NCBI RefSeq assembly: GCF_044324875.1
Contig: NZ_CP172185.1
Strand: one strand, 5' to 3'
Origin: Escherichia coli
Lineage (GTDB): Bacteria; Pseudomonadota; Gammaproteobacteria; Enterobacterales; Enterobacteriaceae
DNA: 64,000 bases
Shown here: piece by piece, positions 18,402 through 21,219 of the stretch
Layout: every line of letters begins with the position of its first letter
How positions within the stretch are numbered: the first letter of the stretch is position 1
Made by a program: the position numbers and the translations under genes
The notes under the pieces: generated by a model
What the model saw: only the letters and a program-made list of their open reading frames with translations
What the model was told of the DNA's origin: nothing
The model's database searches: none

Positions 18402-18411
18402 TTACAATAAT

Positions 18412-18442
18412 GTCCACGCCTGCGGGCGTGGACTACTGTTTG
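18412..18442 (+). terminator. Possible pepD terminator hairpin
   Basis: Perfect stem gtccacgcc / ggcgtggac with tgcg loop 11 nt after the pepD stop; trailing T-run is weak. Confidence 0.4.
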
Positions 18443-18448
18443 AAGCCA

Positions 18449-18691
18449 ATGGCTATCTATATCGAAATAACAAAACATTATGAAACTCATGAAAAGGTCG
18501 CATATTTATATAGCTGCGACCATATTTCATGGGGAGAATTTCTGATCACCAAAGAAGGTTTTGCGCTGGAATCCGTGAAAGAACTTAAGGGTGAAAAGCA
18601 GAAATTTTATATGTTCAGAGCCTGGGGCAAAGTCAGGAGAGCATACTTAACCACGGGAGAATTTCCCCAGGAAACATGTTACGCCGCTTAA
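18449..18691 (+). CDS. Small hypothetical protein (about 80 aa)
   Basis: ORF from MAIYIEITKHYETHEKVAYLY...; no recognisable motif; sits in a segment between pepD and prfH. Confidence 0.25.
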   Translation: MAIYIEITKHYETHEKVAYLYSCDHISWGEFLITKEGFALESVKELKGEKQKFYMFRAWGKVRRAYLTTGEFPQETCYAA

Positions 18692-18707
18692 AGTCAGAAT
18701 AATTTTT

Positions 18708-19217
18708 TCATGCATTTACCATTTTGGCATTACGCCTGCACCACATGGCAATGGCGGCAACCACTAATGCCAGTTCCAGTAAAAACGACCAGTGTAATAA
18801 AAAATTGAGCCACCACGGATGATGTACCGCCGTAATATGAAAGAATGCAAACGGTTGGTTAACGAAAGGCATCAGCCACCAGATATCACCGACCAGCGTA
18901 TCGAGTAATAAATGCGCGATACTATTCAGGCAAAACACCACGCCCAGCCACGCCGGAAGTTTATTCTTCGCAATTCCTGCCCAGACTAATGTCGCCGCCA
19001 GCAGAGCAAACCATAATAATGGCCAATGAGACGGGTAAAGATGATGATGTCGTTGCCCGTTATCAACCAGATAGCACCAAAAAAGATCAAAATCGGGCGC
19101 AACGGCCCCAAGTAAGCCAATAACCATCGCCCAGCGCGCATGACGAGCAATCAGTGGCAAGCGTTTCATTAAAGTACAAGTTATTAAATAACCAGCCGGA
19201 AGATGACCGATAAACAT
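18708..19217 (-). CDS. DUF457/YdjM-like membrane-bound metal-dependent hydrolase family protein
   Basis: Polytopic hydrophobic ORF with N-terminal GHL, an APDFDL motif and histidine clusters; start taken at MFIGHLPAGY; directly downstream of prfH on the same strand. Confidence 0.5.
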   Translation of the reverse strand: MFIGHLPAGYLITCTLMKRLPLIARHARWAMVIGLLGAVAPDFDLFWCYLVDNGQRHHHLYPSHWPLLWFALLAATLVWAGIAKNKLPAWLGVVFCLNSIAHLLLDTLVGDIWWLMPFVNQPFAFFHITAVHHPWWLNFLLHWSFLLELALVVAAIAMWCRRNAKMVNA

Positions 19218-19278
19218 GACTATTCCTTTCGTTTTTCCCGCCGCTTTCATATAGAAAACGGCGGGAGACATTCCTCAA

Positions 19279-19893
19279 TTACACAGCGACAAAAGCCATC
19301 CCTGTAAACGTTCGTCGCGGGTTGCCACGTTCAATCTGGTGATGGAACATTCGCCGCTGCGATTTCAGCGCCGCGCTATTTTCCTGTTGCTGTTGCTCCA
19401 GCTTCCAGGCAATCAGCAATCGCGCCAGCCGTTTGTTGGCATGTTGGCTGCGCTCTGACTGAACCTTCACGCTAATCCCGGATGCCAGATGCGTGGCGCG
19501 TACCGCCGAGTCGGTTTTATTGACATGTTGACCGCCCGGCCCCGACGAACGCAGCGTCTCATAACGGATTGCATCCGATTGTTCCTGCTCATCAGCAGTA
19601 AAACGCCCAATGCCCAGAAACCAGTTTTTGCGCCCATGATGAGGCCGATACGGACTCGGACAAATCCACTGGATAGTGCCGCACCAACTTTCGCTTAATG
19701 CCCATGCGTTATCGCCATCCAGAGAAATCAGCGCTGAACGCAACGTGTCAGAGTAGCGACCCGTTTCTGTTTCCAGCACCGTTATCGCGACGTCTTGTCG
19801 GGTAGCTTCTTTAATCAACCTGTCCAGCGCCTTTTTCACTGCGAGGCAACATTCTTCCGGCCCCTGCGCTGAGGAGAGTTGTAGCAAGATCAT
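19279..19893 (-). CDS. prfH: Peptide chain release factor homolog PrfH, full length
   Basis: 204 codons from [21 protein letters not shown] with GGQ motif ([16 protein letters not shown]); start overlaps the rtcB stop. Confidence 0.85.
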
Positions 19894-21029
19894 CCTTTTT
19901 TCCCTCCACTGTTTTTGAGCGTTAGCACCGGACGCAGCCGCGCGACAGGAATAATTAAACCGGCTTGCACCAGACATTGCACCACGCTTTCAGCCGATTT
20001 ATAGGCTTGTGGCGCTTCTTCAAAGATGAGTTGTTTATCGCGACAAATTACCCGACTGCCAAGTTCAGTACGCGAGAGTTGCGTCGCCGTGCATTTCGCT
20101 GCCAGACGCCCTTTACACTCGGTGCGCCCCCATTTACGCCCTGCCCCATGCGCCAGCGAGTGGAGCGTTTTTTCGTTCGCAACAGGCTGTACAAGCCAGG
20201 AGTAATCACCGCGTGAACCGGGAATAATCACCAGACCGTTGTCATCCGGCGTGGCACCTTTACGATGCAACCAACCCTGTTGATCGCCGATTTGGCACGC
20301 GCTAACAAAGTTATGCGCCACATCCAGAACCGGACTTCCGGTGGCCTTAACTTGTTGCATTATGCGCAAAGCAATCATCTGGCGATTAATACGCGCAAAC
20401 GCTAGCACATCGTCATGTTCCGCAATATACCGTAGCGCGTCGTCACTGCCTTCAGGCAAACCATGATGCGAAAACGAGGCAATATGCCGCTGTAAAATAG
20501 ACTGCCCCAACCCCCTCGAGCCGCTATGAACCAGCAGTTGCAGATGCTGCGCATCCAGACCTGCCAGTGCAAACAGTTCAGCGTCGATGATTTCATCAAC
20601 TTGTTGCAGTTCTGCGAAGTGGTTTCCGCCACCGATAGAGCCAAGCGAGCTGCGCCACGGATGCTGTGCAAATGCTGACGGCAGGTTTTCCTCCAGCCAG
20701 CTTTCTTCAGCAACGTCATCCAAAGCTGATAATCGCTTTTCAAACTTATCGGCGTTGTATTTGCGAGCGAGAATATCTGTTTGCCATAGCGCCATGCCGC
20801 AGCCGATATCATTGCCGACCAGTGCCGGGTAAAAACGGCCTGCGGAGAAGAACGCTGCGCCAATCGGGTAGCCGCGTCCGGGATGTAAATCTGGCATCCC
20901 TACTACGCGCTGCATGTTGGGTAAATTTGCCGTGGTGTGTAATTGTTGGATCGCTAAACTCTCGATCCACAGGTCATCAGATGCGATGGTAAATACCGCA
21001 TCGGATAAGGGACGAATATATTTGCCCAT
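19890..21029 (-). CDS. rtcB2: RtcB-family RNA ligase paired with prfH
   Basis: [13 protein letters not shown]... with RtcB-like metal-binding histidines; 4-nt overlap with prfH indicates an operon. Confidence 0.8.
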
Positions 21030-21219
21030 AAACCATTCCATTTATGAATAAAAATCAGGAAATGGCAGACGAATCCAGGGCAAGAAAAAAAGAATTAATC
21101 CTGGAAAGGTCTGCAAAGAGTCATTGATAAAGGATTTGTCATGATTTACCTCCTTGCAGTTTGTGGAATAAGAAAACGCGCACATACTAGGCGGGCGTTA
21201 TTTTCATTGCAAGCTGGAT

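What the first reader, a model, noticed from the sequence alone, without database searches (positions are those of the whole stretch)
18402..21041. Intact rtcB-prfH pair with an additional DUF457-like membrane protein gene and a small ORF before pepD
In K-12 the rtcB homolog (ykfJ) and prfH are degraded. Here both are full length with overlapping stop/start, as in the recently characterised RtcB2-PrfH system, which is thought to rescue ribosomes with damaged rRNA. Downstream on the same strand is a YdjM/DUF457-like polytopic membrane protein gene, and a further ~80-codon ORF lies between it and pepD. Whether these extra genes are functionally linked to RtcB2-PrfH is an open question.
Basis: partly seen in the sequence, partly recalled or inferred. 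Interest (0 to 1): 0.5.

Follow-up and report, generated by a model that had tools for sequence, protein, structure and literature searches.

The report
Ribosome-repair operon beside two unrelated genes
This E. coli stretch holds the already-known RtcB2-PrfH ribosome-repair operon, and the two extra genes next to it are independent passengers at a variable chromosomal spot (a stand-alone membrane protein and a probable orphan immunity gene against a bacterial toxin), not new parts of the repair system.

Summary
The window (E. coli 042-like) carries full-length rtcB2 (19890-21029, minus strand) and prfH (19279-19893, minus) with an ATGA overlap. Downstream lie a YdjM/DUF457-family gene (18708-19217, minus) and an 80-codon ORF. 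That ORF is on the PLUS strand (18449-18691), convergent with the others, so it cannot be co-transcribed with them.

The proposed functional link is not supported. Of 80 species-level loci of the YdjM-like family, only 4 adjoin rtcB2-prfH, all at the pepD locus. Citrobacter, Klebsiella, Salmonella and Pragia have rtcB2-prfH without it. One K. aerogenes strain has it instead of rtcB2-prfH. In E. coli, 2,674 of 5,426 genomes have intact rtcB2-prfH and only 325 carry the extra 877 bp. Synonymous divergence shows decoupled histories.

Relatives of the small ORF sit directly after one uncharacterised toxin C-terminal domain on Rhs, pre-toxin-TG and other carriers in Salmonella, Priestia, Bacillus and Clostridium. 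With no toxin here, it is most likely an orphan immunity gene.

In passing, I found a conserved 15-codon leader ORF upstream of rtcB2. It is probably the counterpart of the Pseudomonas PA5471.1 stalling sensor. Overall this is mostly ordinary, with two modest by-products.

The parts
21030..21160 (-). Conserved 5' leader of the rtcB2-prfH operon. It has a strong SD (21149-21155), a 15-codon mini-ORF MTNPLSMTLCRPFQD* (21095-21142), and invariant blocks able to form alternative pairings: SD with codons 8-11; GCAGAC (21109-21114) with GUCUGC (21065-21070); and the GUCUGCCA block with the rtcB start region.
   Evidence: The same 15-codon ORF ending [L/I]CRxxQx* occurs in six genera at this locus and in Pragia at a different locus. 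96-98% of cells pair, against 23-52% for slid controls, but there is only one compensatory pair per helix, which is not significant. Known counterpart: P. aeruginosa PA5471.1 (PMC3516279, PMC12057347).
19890..21029 (-). rtcB2, the RNA ligase of the RtcB2-PrfH ribosome-repair pair (379 aa; alternative upstream ATG at 21041).
   Evidence: NF007153 638 bits, TIGR03073 616 bits. H294 present. RefSeq WP_000521550.1.
19279..19893 (-). prfH, release-factor homologue H (204 aa). It overlaps the rtcB2 stop by ATGA. Its last four codons lie at the right breakpoint of the variable segment (...MAFVAV here, ...MAFIEG in short-form strains).
   Evidence: TIGR03072 329 bits. GGQ with Q122. Junction alignment.
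19236..19266 (-). 13-bp hairpin in the 61-nt prfH to YdjM-like spacer. It is followed by an A-run and then the RBS (AAAGGAAT), so it is not a canonical terminator in either direction. It travels with the YdjM-like gene.
   Evidence: dG -26 kcal/mol, z -3.9. There is a compensatory change in L004, and a similar hairpin precedes the K. aerogenes gene, which has no prfH. The terminator scan lists nothing here.
18708..19217 (-). YdjM/DUF457-family polytopic inner-membrane protein (169 aa), annotated 'metal-dependent hydrolase'. It is a stand-alone accessory gene.
   Evidence: PF04307 E 1.2e-8. Invariant H5, D42, D44, H58, H59, H64, H102, D106, H142, E148 across 27 homologues. AF2 pLDDT 88. dN/dS 0.13-0.25. 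No conserved neighbours.
18449..18691 (+). 80-aa probable orphan immunity gene of an undescribed polymorphic-toxin family (RefSeq start 18410, 93 aa).
   Evidence: Homologues lie 3-13 nt downstream of the same toxin C-terminal domain in Salmonella Rhs loci, L104, Priestia and Clostridium, lie just downstream of it in Bacillus, and follow an orphan toxin fragment in L105/L106. No toxin in the window. dN/dS 0.10-0.28.
18412..18433 (+). 9-bp GC-rich hairpin 11 nt after the pepD stop. It is terminator-like for pepD and lies inside the N-terminal extension of the annotated 93-aa version of the small ORF.
   Evidence: Terminator scan. It argues for the Met14 start, which is the start used in Salmonella and in L089/L111.
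18402..19284 (.). Variable segment of about 0.88 kb, present in 325 of 5,426 complete E. coli genomes. Other strains with intact rtcB2-prfH have an unrelated 56-bp hairpin spacer here instead.
   Evidence: Mosaic dS.

Best explanation
The region contains three independent modules that share a variable chromosomal slot between the dinB-yafP operon and pepD.

(1) rtcB2-prfH is the known two-gene ribosome rescue and repair operon. PrfH releases the peptide from ribosomes whose 16S rRNA has been cut in the decoding centre, for example by colicin E3. RtcB2 then re-ligates the rRNA (shown in the literature). The operon carries its own conserved leader with a 15-codon mini-ORF. I infer that this leader couples ribosome stalling to operon expression, as PA5471.1 does for the orthologous armZ-PA5470 operon of P. 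aeruginosa.

(2) The YdjM-like gene encodes a stand-alone, polytopic inner-membrane protein with an invariant His/Asp/Glu cluster. I infer that it is a membrane-embedded metal-dependent hydrolase acting on an envelope or lipid substrate. It brings its own leader hairpin and RBS. It may be read through from prfH in Escherichia, but it does not depend on RtcB2-PrfH.

(3) The 80-aa ORF on the opposite strand is an orphan immunity gene. I infer that its product binds and neutralises one specific, still uncharacterised toxin C-terminal domain, which competitors deliver on Rhs, pre-toxin-TG, hemagglutinin-repeat or other carriers. E. coli keeps the antidote without the toxin.

The 0.88-kb segment holding modules (2) and (3) is old in the genus Escherichia, has been lost from most E. 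coli lineages, and has been reshuffled by recombination.
For: Identity of rtcB2-prfH; function from PMC9304027, PMC9223846, PMC13166195.

No conserved linkage:
- 76 of 80 YdjM-family loci have no RtcB2 within 8 kb. One of them, L081, shows only a weak 33% PrfH-like hit that was not examined.
- The family has no conserved neighbour at all.
- Citrobacter, K. oxytoca group, Salmonella, K. aerogenes and Pragia have rtcB2-prfH without it.
- K. aerogenes L088 has the YdjM-like cassette in place of rtcB2-prfH, and homology with the other state stops exactly at the yafP and pepD stop codons.
- PMC9304027 describes a two-component operon in the overwhelming majority of bacteria.
- E. coli counts are 2,674 genomes with intact rtcB2-prfH against 325 with the segment.
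- dS is mosaic. Against L005 the flanks are 0.19-0.26 while the YdjM-like gene is 0.08 and orf80 0.00. Against L004 the flanks are 0.16-0.29 against 0.47 and 0.67. Against L089 the YdjM-like gene is 0.13 and orf80 0.55.

Immunity assignment:
- The Salmonella homologue lies 10 nt after a full Rhs toxin, and after orphan Rhs-CT fragments.
- In L104 a toxin C-terminus 52% identical (E 3e-45) is followed 3 nt later by a 40%-identical homologue. L105/L106 have an orphan toxin fragment followed by a homologue, then a SUKH-like gene.
- The same toxin domain occurs in Priestia (pre-toxin TG), Bacillus, Clostridium and Rhizobium (hemagglutinin repeats).
- A family HMM hits the adjacent ORFs of 81-83 aa at E 5e-18, 2e-13 and 7e-13 in Priestia, Bacillus and Clostridium.
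- There is no toxin in the window (best E 0.61) or in complete E. coli genomes at blastn sensitivity.
- Concept of orphan immunity: PMC3150448, PMC3967940, PMC10539506.

Leader; PMC3516279 and PMC12057347.
Against: - Every E. coli genome that carries the segment also has full-length rtcB2-prfH (about 325-327 genomes). The order rtcB2-prfH-YdjM-like on one strand recurs in Superficieibacter. So a lineage-specific accessory role, or co-transcription, is not excluded. The spacer has no canonical terminator and no detected promoter.
- The within-species association is confounded by shared descent.
- No binding or protection data exist for the 80-aa protein, and the toxin's activity is unknown: no Pfam, PDB or fold match.
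- No family member was detected downstream of the Rhizobium toxin.
- Covariation support for the leader helices is not significant.
Confidence: 0.75

Rival explanations
1. In the ancestral Escherichia form of the locus, the YdjM-like protein is a genuine third component of an extended RtcB2-PrfH system. For example, it could act at the inner membrane against the import or action of colicin-type ribotoxins. It would be co-transcribed with prfH, and most lineages would have lost it secondarily.
For: Same strand, with only 61 nt after prfH, no canonical terminator and no promoter detected. The same order occurs in Escherichia spp. and Superficieibacter. All roughly 325 E. coli genomes with the gene have intact rtcB2-prfH, while only 49% of all genomes do.
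Against: The gene stands alone in 76 of 80 species. It is absent from rtcB2-prfH loci in five other genera. It replaces rtcB2-prfH in a K. aerogenes strain and brings its own 182-nt leader. Its dS history differs from that of prfH. RtcB2-PrfH alone suffices for protection in ATCC25922 and in vitro (PMC9223846, PMC9304027).
Confidence: 0.1
2. The 80-codon ORF is not an immunity gene. It could be a small protein of another function, for example a regulator or a pepD-linked factor, or a decaying remnant. Its position after toxins elsewhere would then be incidental.
For: No biochemical data and no Pfam, NCBIfam, PADLOC or PHROG match. It has a weak RBS and sits just after a terminator-like hairpin. 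One comparison shows 0 synonymous and 6 non-synonymous differences.
Against: There are at least six independent toxin/small-ORF pairs in two phyla, on different delivery scaffolds, with spacers of 3-13 nt where measured. The family is found essentially only in that context or at this Escherichia locus. Purifying selection is seen in four of five comparisons.
Confidence: 0.12
3. The 0.88-kb segment is a recent horizontal insertion (a small mobile cassette) into the 042 lineage, not an ancestral feature.
For: The segment is present in only 6% of E. coli, with sharp breakpoints at the pepD stop and the last codons of prfH. dS is lower than the flanks against L005 and L006.
Against: No integrase, IS or direct repeats lie at the junctions. 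The segment is always chromosomal, and it is single-copy in nearly every genome (331 places in 329 genomes). It is present in E. whittamii, other Escherichia lineages, albertii-type contigs and, for the YdjM-like gene only, Superficieibacter and K. aerogenes. Allelic divergence within E. coli is 3-4%, similar to the flanks.
Confidence: 0.15

Closest known systems
RtcB2-PrfH ribosome rescue and repair operon of E. coli ATCC25922 (PMC9304027, PMC9223846, PMC13166195)
   Same: Same two proteins. They pass the NCBIfam equivalog models at about twice the cut-off, have the same ATGA overlap, and retain the catalytic Q122 (GGQ) and H294. The chromosomal locus between yafP and pepD is the same as in other E. 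coli.
   Different: Nothing of substance for the two genes themselves. PrfH ends ...VAV instead of ...IEG, because the variable segment begins inside its last four codons. No published description includes the neighbours.
PA5471.1 leader peptide controlling armZ (PA5471, RtcB-like) and PA5470 (prfH) in Pseudomonas aeruginosa (Morita 2009, as reviewed in PMC3516279 and PMC12057347)
   Same: A very short ORF (13 aa there, 15 aa here) lies upstream of the orthologous rtcB-like/prfH operon, and RNA segments could refold when a ribosome stalls. K-12 ykfJ was reported to be inducible by 4-azaleucine.
   Different: Here the mini-ORF ends about 65 nt before rtcB2, against about 250 bp in Pseudomonas. 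The conserved pairing involves the rtcB2 start region, which suggests translational control rather than transcriptional attenuation. Sequence homology to PA5471.1 was not tested. Enterobacteria have no MexZ partner.
Orphan immunity genes of Rhs/CDI/T6SS polymorphic toxin systems (PMC3150448, PMC3967940, PMC10539506, PMC12247911)
   Same: A small gene whose homologues immediately follow a variable toxin C-terminal domain on several delivery scaffolds. Here it is kept without any toxin, in a strain-variable position.
   Different: The toxin and immunity families match nothing in Pfam, NCBIfam or the PDB. The orphan sits alone next to a housekeeping gene (pepD) and not in an rhs, cdi or immunity-gene array. 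The toxin's activity is unknown.
E. coli YdjM / YbcI (Pfam PF04307, DUF457; COG 'membrane-bound metal-dependent hydrolase')
   Same: Pfam match over nearly the whole length, a polytopic helical membrane protein, and conserved His/Asp residues.
   Different: It is a distant subfamily (E only 1e-8) whose closest relatives are in Pseudomonas, Halopseudomonas, Alcanivorax and betaproteobacteria. None of 80 loci has a LexA box, whereas E. coli ydjM is LexA-regulated (that statement is from my own knowledge).

Membership tests
RtcB2-PrfH system | RtcB of the PrfH-associated subfamily (PRK09588 / TIGR03073 'release_rtcB') | tested here: met
   NF007153 638 bits (cut-off 407) and TIGR03073 616 bits (cut-off 272).
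RtcB2-PrfH system | PrfH: a short class-I release-factor homologue lacking domain 1, with a GGQ motif | tested here: met
   TIGR03072 329 bits (cut-off 167), 204 aa. It aligns only to RF2 positions 142-316. GGQ at 120-122.
RtcB2-PrfH system | Two genes in one operon, rtcB2 first, translationally coupled | tested here: met
   ATGA overlap at 19890-19893.
RtcB2-PrfH system | Catalytic residues used in published loss-of-function mutants (PrfH Q122, RtcB2 H294) | tested here: met
   Both present; mutants described in PMC9304027.
RtcB2-PrfH system | Protects against decoding-centre rRNA cleavage (colicin E3) | not testable with these tools
   Needs an in vivo or in vitro assay.
RtcB2-PrfH system (extended, with a YdjM-like third gene) | Conserved co-occurrence of the third gene with the pair across genomes | tested here: not met
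   4 of 80 YdjM-family loci adjoin the pair. Of the genera sampled in the reverse test (Citrobacter, Klebsiella oxytoca group, Salmonella, K. aerogenes, Pragia), none has the third gene. 325 of 2,674 E. coli genomes with the pair have it.
YdjM / DUF457 (PF04307) | Match to the Pfam profile over most of its length | tested here: met
   E 1.2e-8, residues 3-156 against model positions 4-166 of 176. Homologues carry PF04307.
YdjM / DUF457 (PF04307) | Metal-dependent hydrolase activity (the database name) | tested here: inconclusive
YdjM / DUF457 (PF04307) | LexA (SOS) control, as known for E. coli ydjM (not family-defining) | tested here: not met
   No CTGT-N8-ACAG within 200 nt upstream in 0 of 80 loci, and none near the gene in the window.
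Polymorphic-toxin immunity protein (orphan) | Homologues encoded immediately downstream of a toxin C-terminal domain, same strand | tested here: met
   Salmonella 10 nt, L104 3 nt, Priestia 3 nt, Clostridium 13 nt; Bacillus and the L105/L106 orphan fragment also have one directly downstream.
Polymorphic-toxin immunity protein (orphan) | The same toxin domain is carried on different delivery scaffolds and moves together with the immunity gene | tested here: met
   Rhs with DPxGL, orphan Rhs-CT, pre-toxin TG, hemagglutinin repeats and a 578-aa carrier. Family HMM E 5e-18 to 7e-13 on the partners in Priestia, Bacillus and Clostridium; no partner was detected next to the Rhizobium toxin.
Polymorphic-toxin immunity protein (orphan) | No cognate toxin in the same genome (orphan status) | tested here: met
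   tblastn of the window gives a best E of 0.61. In 5,426 E. coli genomes only the immunity part matches (DNA-level sensitivity only).
Polymorphic-toxin immunity protein (orphan) | Binds and neutralises the toxin | not testable with these tools
   Needs co-expression or pull-down.
Leader-peptide control of rtcB-like/prfH operons (PA5471.1 type) | Short translated ORF with an SD in the operon's 5' leader, conserved with the operon | tested here: met
   A 15-codon ORF in 7 genera, including a different locus in Pragia. Translation itself was not tested.
Leader-peptide control of rtcB-like/prfH operons (PA5471.1 type) | Mutually exclusive RNA structures linking leader translation to downstream expression | tested here: inconclusive
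   Both folds pair in 96-98% of cells against 23-52% for slid controls, but there is one compensatory pair each and 96-113 of 500 shuffles do as well.
Leader-peptide control of rtcB-like/prfH operons (PA5471.1 type) | Sequence homology to PA5471.1 | not tested

The most novel reading that the evidence does not exclude
The dinB/yafP to pepD gap is a small interbacterial-defence islet, analogous to a phage-defence island. Protections against competitors' toxins would accumulate and be swapped there: repair of ribotoxin damage (RtcB2-PrfH, self-induced through its stalling-sensitive leader), one or more orphan immunity genes (the 80-aa gene, and perhaps the 171-aa two-TM gene of E. albertii-type strains), and a membrane hydrolase. 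In the strongest form, the toxin neutralised by the 80-aa protein also targets the translation apparatus, which would give a 'neutralise plus repair' pair.
Probability: 0.15. Interest if true: 0.6.

Novelty: new member of a known kind. Interest (0 to 1): 0.33.

Why it matters
For the finding as posed, the answer is mostly negative, and that is still useful. People working on RtcB2-PrfH need not treat the YdjM-like gene or the small ORF as missing components, and the system remains a two-gene operon.

Two by-products may be worth a small experiment.

First, a toxin/immunity family pair spans Proteobacteria and Firmicutes and is absent from Pfam, NCBIfam and the PDB. About 6% of E. coli keep only the antidote, which adds to the evidence that orphan immunity genes are part of the species' accessory defence repertoire.

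Second, the 15-codon leader that travels with rtcB2-prfH offers a concrete, testable route by which enterobacteria could switch on ribosome repair when ribosomes stall. The RtcB2-PrfH papers I read do not address how the operon is regulated. The only known precedent is Pseudomonas PA5471.1, where the same logic drives aminoglycoside resistance.

Tried and rejected
1. 'The window lost a toxin upstream of the small ORF'. Some Escherichia strains have a 171-aa gene between pepD and the ORF, but it is unrelated to the Rhs C-terminal domain (BLASTP E 3.5) and looks like a two-TM protein. Rejected.

2. SOS/LexA control of the YdjM-like gene, suggested by E. coli ydjM and the adjacent dinB operon. 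There are no LexA boxes in 0 of 80 loci. Rejected.

3. Conserved operon partners of the YdjM-like family as a clue to function. The best candidate is a ZnuC-like ATPase in 10 of 76 loci, at variable distance and strand. Nothing usable.

4. A DUF457 structural paper (Cap1). This was a false text match to DUF4579. Discarded.

5. Fold of the YdjM-like protein. A confident model gives only generic TM-bundle hits.

7. An apparent truncated prfH next to intact extra genes in albertii-type contigs. This was a gene-calling artefact caused by a 1-nt difference in an A-run at the rtcB stop; PrfH is intact.

8. Rfam on the region and on three other genera. Only a sub-threshold STnc350 hit on the opposite strand (E 0.84) and an unrelated tRNA.

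9. PADLOC on all five proteins: no hits.
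Full report
**What is in the sequence.**
The window is E. coli chromosome and is nearly identical to strain 042 (99.8% over 6 kb). Between pepD (16944-18401, plus strand) and yafP (21220-21672, minus strand) lie four ORFs.
- rtcB2 runs from 19890 to 21029 on the minus strand (379 aa). An in-frame ATG at 21041 gives the finding's end coordinate.
- prfH runs from 19279 to 19893 on the minus strand (204 aa).
- A YdjM-like gene runs from 18708 to 19217 on the minus strand (169 aa).
- A small ORF lies on the PLUS strand. RefSeq calls it 18410-18691 (93 aa), but its conserved frame starts at Met14 (18449, 80 aa).

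rtcB2 and prfH pass NCBI's equivalog models at about twice the cut-off. They overlap by ATGA and retain the residues whose mutation abolishes activity in the literature, PrfH Q122 in GGQ and RtcB2 H294. K-12 has only pseudogene fragments.

The small ORF is convergent with the other three genes, so it cannot be part of their transcript.

**Are the two extra ORFs genes?**
Yes. Across Escherichia lineages the YdjM-like gene has dN/dS of 0.13-0.25. The small ORF has 0.10-0.28, including 0.21 against a 56%-identical Salmonella homologue. PrfH has 0.03-0.09. One small-ORF comparison (0 synonymous, 6 non-synonymous differences against L005) is uninformative.

The YdjM-like protein matches Pfam PF04307. 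Its AlphaFold model is confident (pLDDT 88) and shows five long helices plus one short one. Across 27 homologues it keeps an invariant set of His, Asp and Glu residues.

**Is the YdjM-like gene linked to rtcB2-prfH?**
I tested this in both directions.

*Forward.* A profile of the family retrieved 80 loci from one-genome-per-species contigs. Only four have rtcB2-prfH next door: E. coli, Escherichia sp., E. whittamii and Superficieibacter electus, all at the pepD locus. The other 76, mostly Pseudomonas, Halopseudomonas, Alcanivorax, Acinetobacter and betaproteobacteria, have no RtcB2 within 8 kb. One of them (L081) gives a weak 33% PrfH-like hit that I did not examine. These 76 loci share no conserved neighbour at all.

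*Reverse.* In Citrobacter, the K. oxytoca group, Salmonella and K. aerogenes the order is dinB(-yafP), rtcB2, prfH, then convergent pepD, with nothing in between. In Pragia the operon sits at an unrelated locus, again without a YdjM-like gene. One K. aerogenes strain has the YdjM-like gene in the slot instead of rtcB2-prfH. Homology between the two K. aerogenes states stops exactly at the yafP and pepD stop codons, so these are alternative cassettes, each with its own leader.

*Within E. coli.* 2,674 of 5,426 complete genomes have full-length rtcB2-prfH, and only 325 carry the extra 877 bp. The remaining genomes with the intact pair have an unrelated 56-bp hairpin spacer. The breakpoints lie at the pepD stop and inside the last four codons of prfH.

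*Divergence.* Synonymous divergence is mosaic.
- Against L005 the flanks are at dS 0.19-0.26, the YdjM-like gene at 0.08 and the small ORF at 0.00.
- Against L004 the flanks are at 0.16-0.29, against 0.47 and 0.67.
- Against L089 the YdjM-like gene is at 0.13 and the small ORF at 0.55.

The two extra genes therefore have histories decoupled from rtcB2-prfH and from each other.

*What remains in favour of a link.* All roughly 325 carriers have an intact pair, the order recurs in Superficieibacter, and the 61-nt spacer has no canonical terminator or detectable promoter. The first point is confounded by descent. The spacer's 13-bp hairpin carries a compensatory change in L004, and a similar hairpin precedes the K. 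aerogenes gene, which has no prfH. The hairpin therefore belongs to the YdjM-like gene and not to prfH.

**What is the YdjM-like protein?**

My best inference is a stand-alone, membrane-embedded metal-dependent hydrolase with an envelope or lipid substrate. That inference rests only on the residue pattern and the family name.

**What is the small ORF?**
Its family is tiny. An exhaustive HMMER scan of 1.84 billion representatives found 15 with E below 1e-3. Outside Escherichia, members are found directly after one particular toxin domain.
- In Salmonella the homologue starts 10 nt after a full-length Rhs protein, which has a DPxGL motif followed by a 141-aa C-terminal tip. In other strains it follows orphan Rhs-CT fragments carrying the same tip.
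- In metagenomic contig L104 a 578-aa protein ends in a domain 52% identical to that tip (E 3e-45). A 40%-identical homologue follows 3 nt later.
- In L105/L106 an orphan fragment of the tip precedes another homologue, which is followed by a SUKH-like gene.
- tblastn finds the same tip on a pre-toxin-TG protein in Priestia, in Bacillus and Clostridium, and on a hemagglutinin-repeat protein in Rhizobium.
- An HMM of the small-ORF family hits the adjacent ORFs of 81-83 aa in Priestia, Bacillus and Clostridium (E 5e-18, 2e-13, 7e-13). No family member was detected next to the Rhizobium toxin.

This is the defining behaviour of a polymorphic-toxin/immunity module (PMC3150448, PMC3967940). The window has no trace of the toxin. 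In complete E. coli genomes only the immunity part matches. The ORF is therefore most likely an orphan immunity gene (concept: PMC10539506, PMC12247911).

The toxin has invariant H47, D65, D67, H92-E93-x-x-E96 and H111. It matches nothing in Pfam, NCBIfam, PHROGs or the PDB by sequence, profile or fold. Its target, and hence any mechanistic tie to ribosome repair, is unknown.

**History of the locus.**
The four-gene form occurs in E. whittamii and another Escherichia lineage. A five-gene form, with an additional 171-aa two-TM gene, occurs in albertii-type and some E. coli contigs. The YdjM-like gene alone occurs at the same site in Superficieibacter and K. aerogenes. No mobility genes or target duplications flank the segment.

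The simplest reading is an old, recombining, frequently lost islet in a hot spot between dinB-yafP and pepD.

**Something noticed outside the stated coordinates.**
The 190-nt yafP to rtcB2 spacer contains a strong SD (21149-21155) and a 15-codon mini-ORF (21095-21142, MTNPLSMTLCRPFQD*). The same-length ORF, ending [L/I]CRxxQx*, is present upstream of rtcB2 in Escherichia, Superficieibacter, Salmonella, Citrobacter, Klebsiella and K. aerogenes. It is also present in Pragia, where the operon is at a different locus.

Blocks of 8-13 nt around it are invariant although the coding genes are saturated at synonymous sites (PrfH dS 1.6 against Superficieibacter). These blocks can pair in two mutually exclusive ways.
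- The SD pairs with codons 8-11, and GUCUGCCA..UCC pairs with the rtcB2 start region.
- Alternatively, GCAGAC pairs with GUCUGC.

Both folds are 96-98% pairable, against 23-52% for slid controls. Each has only one compensatory pair: A-U to G·U (Klebsiella) to G-C (Pragia), and U-A to A-U. About 100 of 500 shuffles do as well, so covariation does not prove them.

The literature supplies a precedent. In P. aeruginosa the RtcB-like ArmZ (PA5471) and PrfH (PA5470) operon is controlled by the 13-aa leader peptide PA5471.1, which senses stalled ribosomes. K-12 ykfJ was reported to be inducible by 4-azaleucine (PMC3516279, PMC12057347). The RtcB2-PrfH papers I read do not mention a leader.

I therefore propose that the enterobacterial mini-ORF is the counterpart of PA5471.1 and makes the repair operon respond to ribosome stalling. 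I did not test homology to PA5471.1.

**Verdict.**
The proposed link to the two extra genes is not supported. They are an independent DUF457-family membrane protein and a probable orphan immunity gene.

Interest is modest. The by-products, a new toxin/immunity family pair and a conserved leader for rtcB2-prfH, are new members of known kinds.

Noticed in passing
window 21030-21160 (minus strand); also L008, L092, L094, L096, L098 and L114 upstream of rtcB: A conserved 15-codon mini-ORF with a strong SD, plus invariant RNA blocks capable of alternative pairing, lies in the rtcB2 leader. It is present in 7 genera and moves with the operon to another locus in Pragia. It is probably the counterpart of the P. 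aeruginosa PA5471.1 stalling-sensor leader peptide. The RtcB2-PrfH papers I read do not mention it.
   Followed up: partly
L085 5568-5990, L084 5487-5990, L104 1550-1945, L107 2501-2860, L108-L110: An uncharacterised polymorphic-toxin C-terminal domain of about 125 aa (motifs DYYKFEKEA, FDPD, LLNHExFESKFE; invariant H, D, D, HExxE, H). It occurs on Rhs, pre-toxin-TG and hemagglutinin-repeat carriers and on an unknown 578-aa carrier. It has no Pfam, PDB or fold match, and its activity is unknown.
   Followed up: partly
L089 4458-4973, L111 3950-4465 (between pepD and the 80-aa ORF; absent from the window): Some Escherichia contigs carry an extra 171-aa gene with two C-terminal TM helices in the same islet. 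It has no family match and is absent from all 5,426 complete E. coli genomes. It may be another orphan immunity gene.
   Followed up: partly
L003, L005, L089, L111: between the leader and the rtcB start (not in the window): An insert of about 125 bp containing the ERIC repeat core (AAGTAAGTGACTGGGGTGA; recognised from memory of the ERIC2 primer) separates the conserved leader from rtcB in K-12 and several other strains. It would disrupt the proposed pairing between the leader and the rtcB start region.
   Followed up: no
L111-L113 near 5950 (equivalent to window ~19893-19900): The A-run at the rtcB2 stop / prfH start is A5 in albertii-type contigs instead of A6. This removes the rtcB2 stop (extending the protein to 405 aa) and breaks the ATGA coupling. 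It is seen in three independent assemblies, so it is probably a real allele.
   Followed up: partly
window 21682-22080 (minus strand): The yafO toxin gene of the yafNO toxin-antitoxin pair is split by an internal stop (annotated as a pseudogene in strain 042), while the antitoxin gene yafN is intact.
   Followed up: no
window 23554 onward: lafU, motA, a FliA-like sigma factor gene and an FlhA-like ORF lie here. This is the lateral-flagella (Flag-2) cluster, present next to dinB. It is known to be intact in strain 042 and deleted in K-12 (from my own knowledge).
   Followed up: no
E. coli plasmid records: About 15 of the BLAST places matching the rtcB-prfH region are on records labelled as plasmids. 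I did not check whether these are true plasmid copies or assembly or labelling artefacts.
   Followed up: no
L081 9037-9465 (Sulfuricella MAG): There is a weak PrfH-like hit (33% identity over 146 aa) about 0.5 kb downstream of that genome's YdjM-like gene. It could be another RF-1-domain protein such as ArfB or a release factor, but I did not examine it.
   Followed up: no
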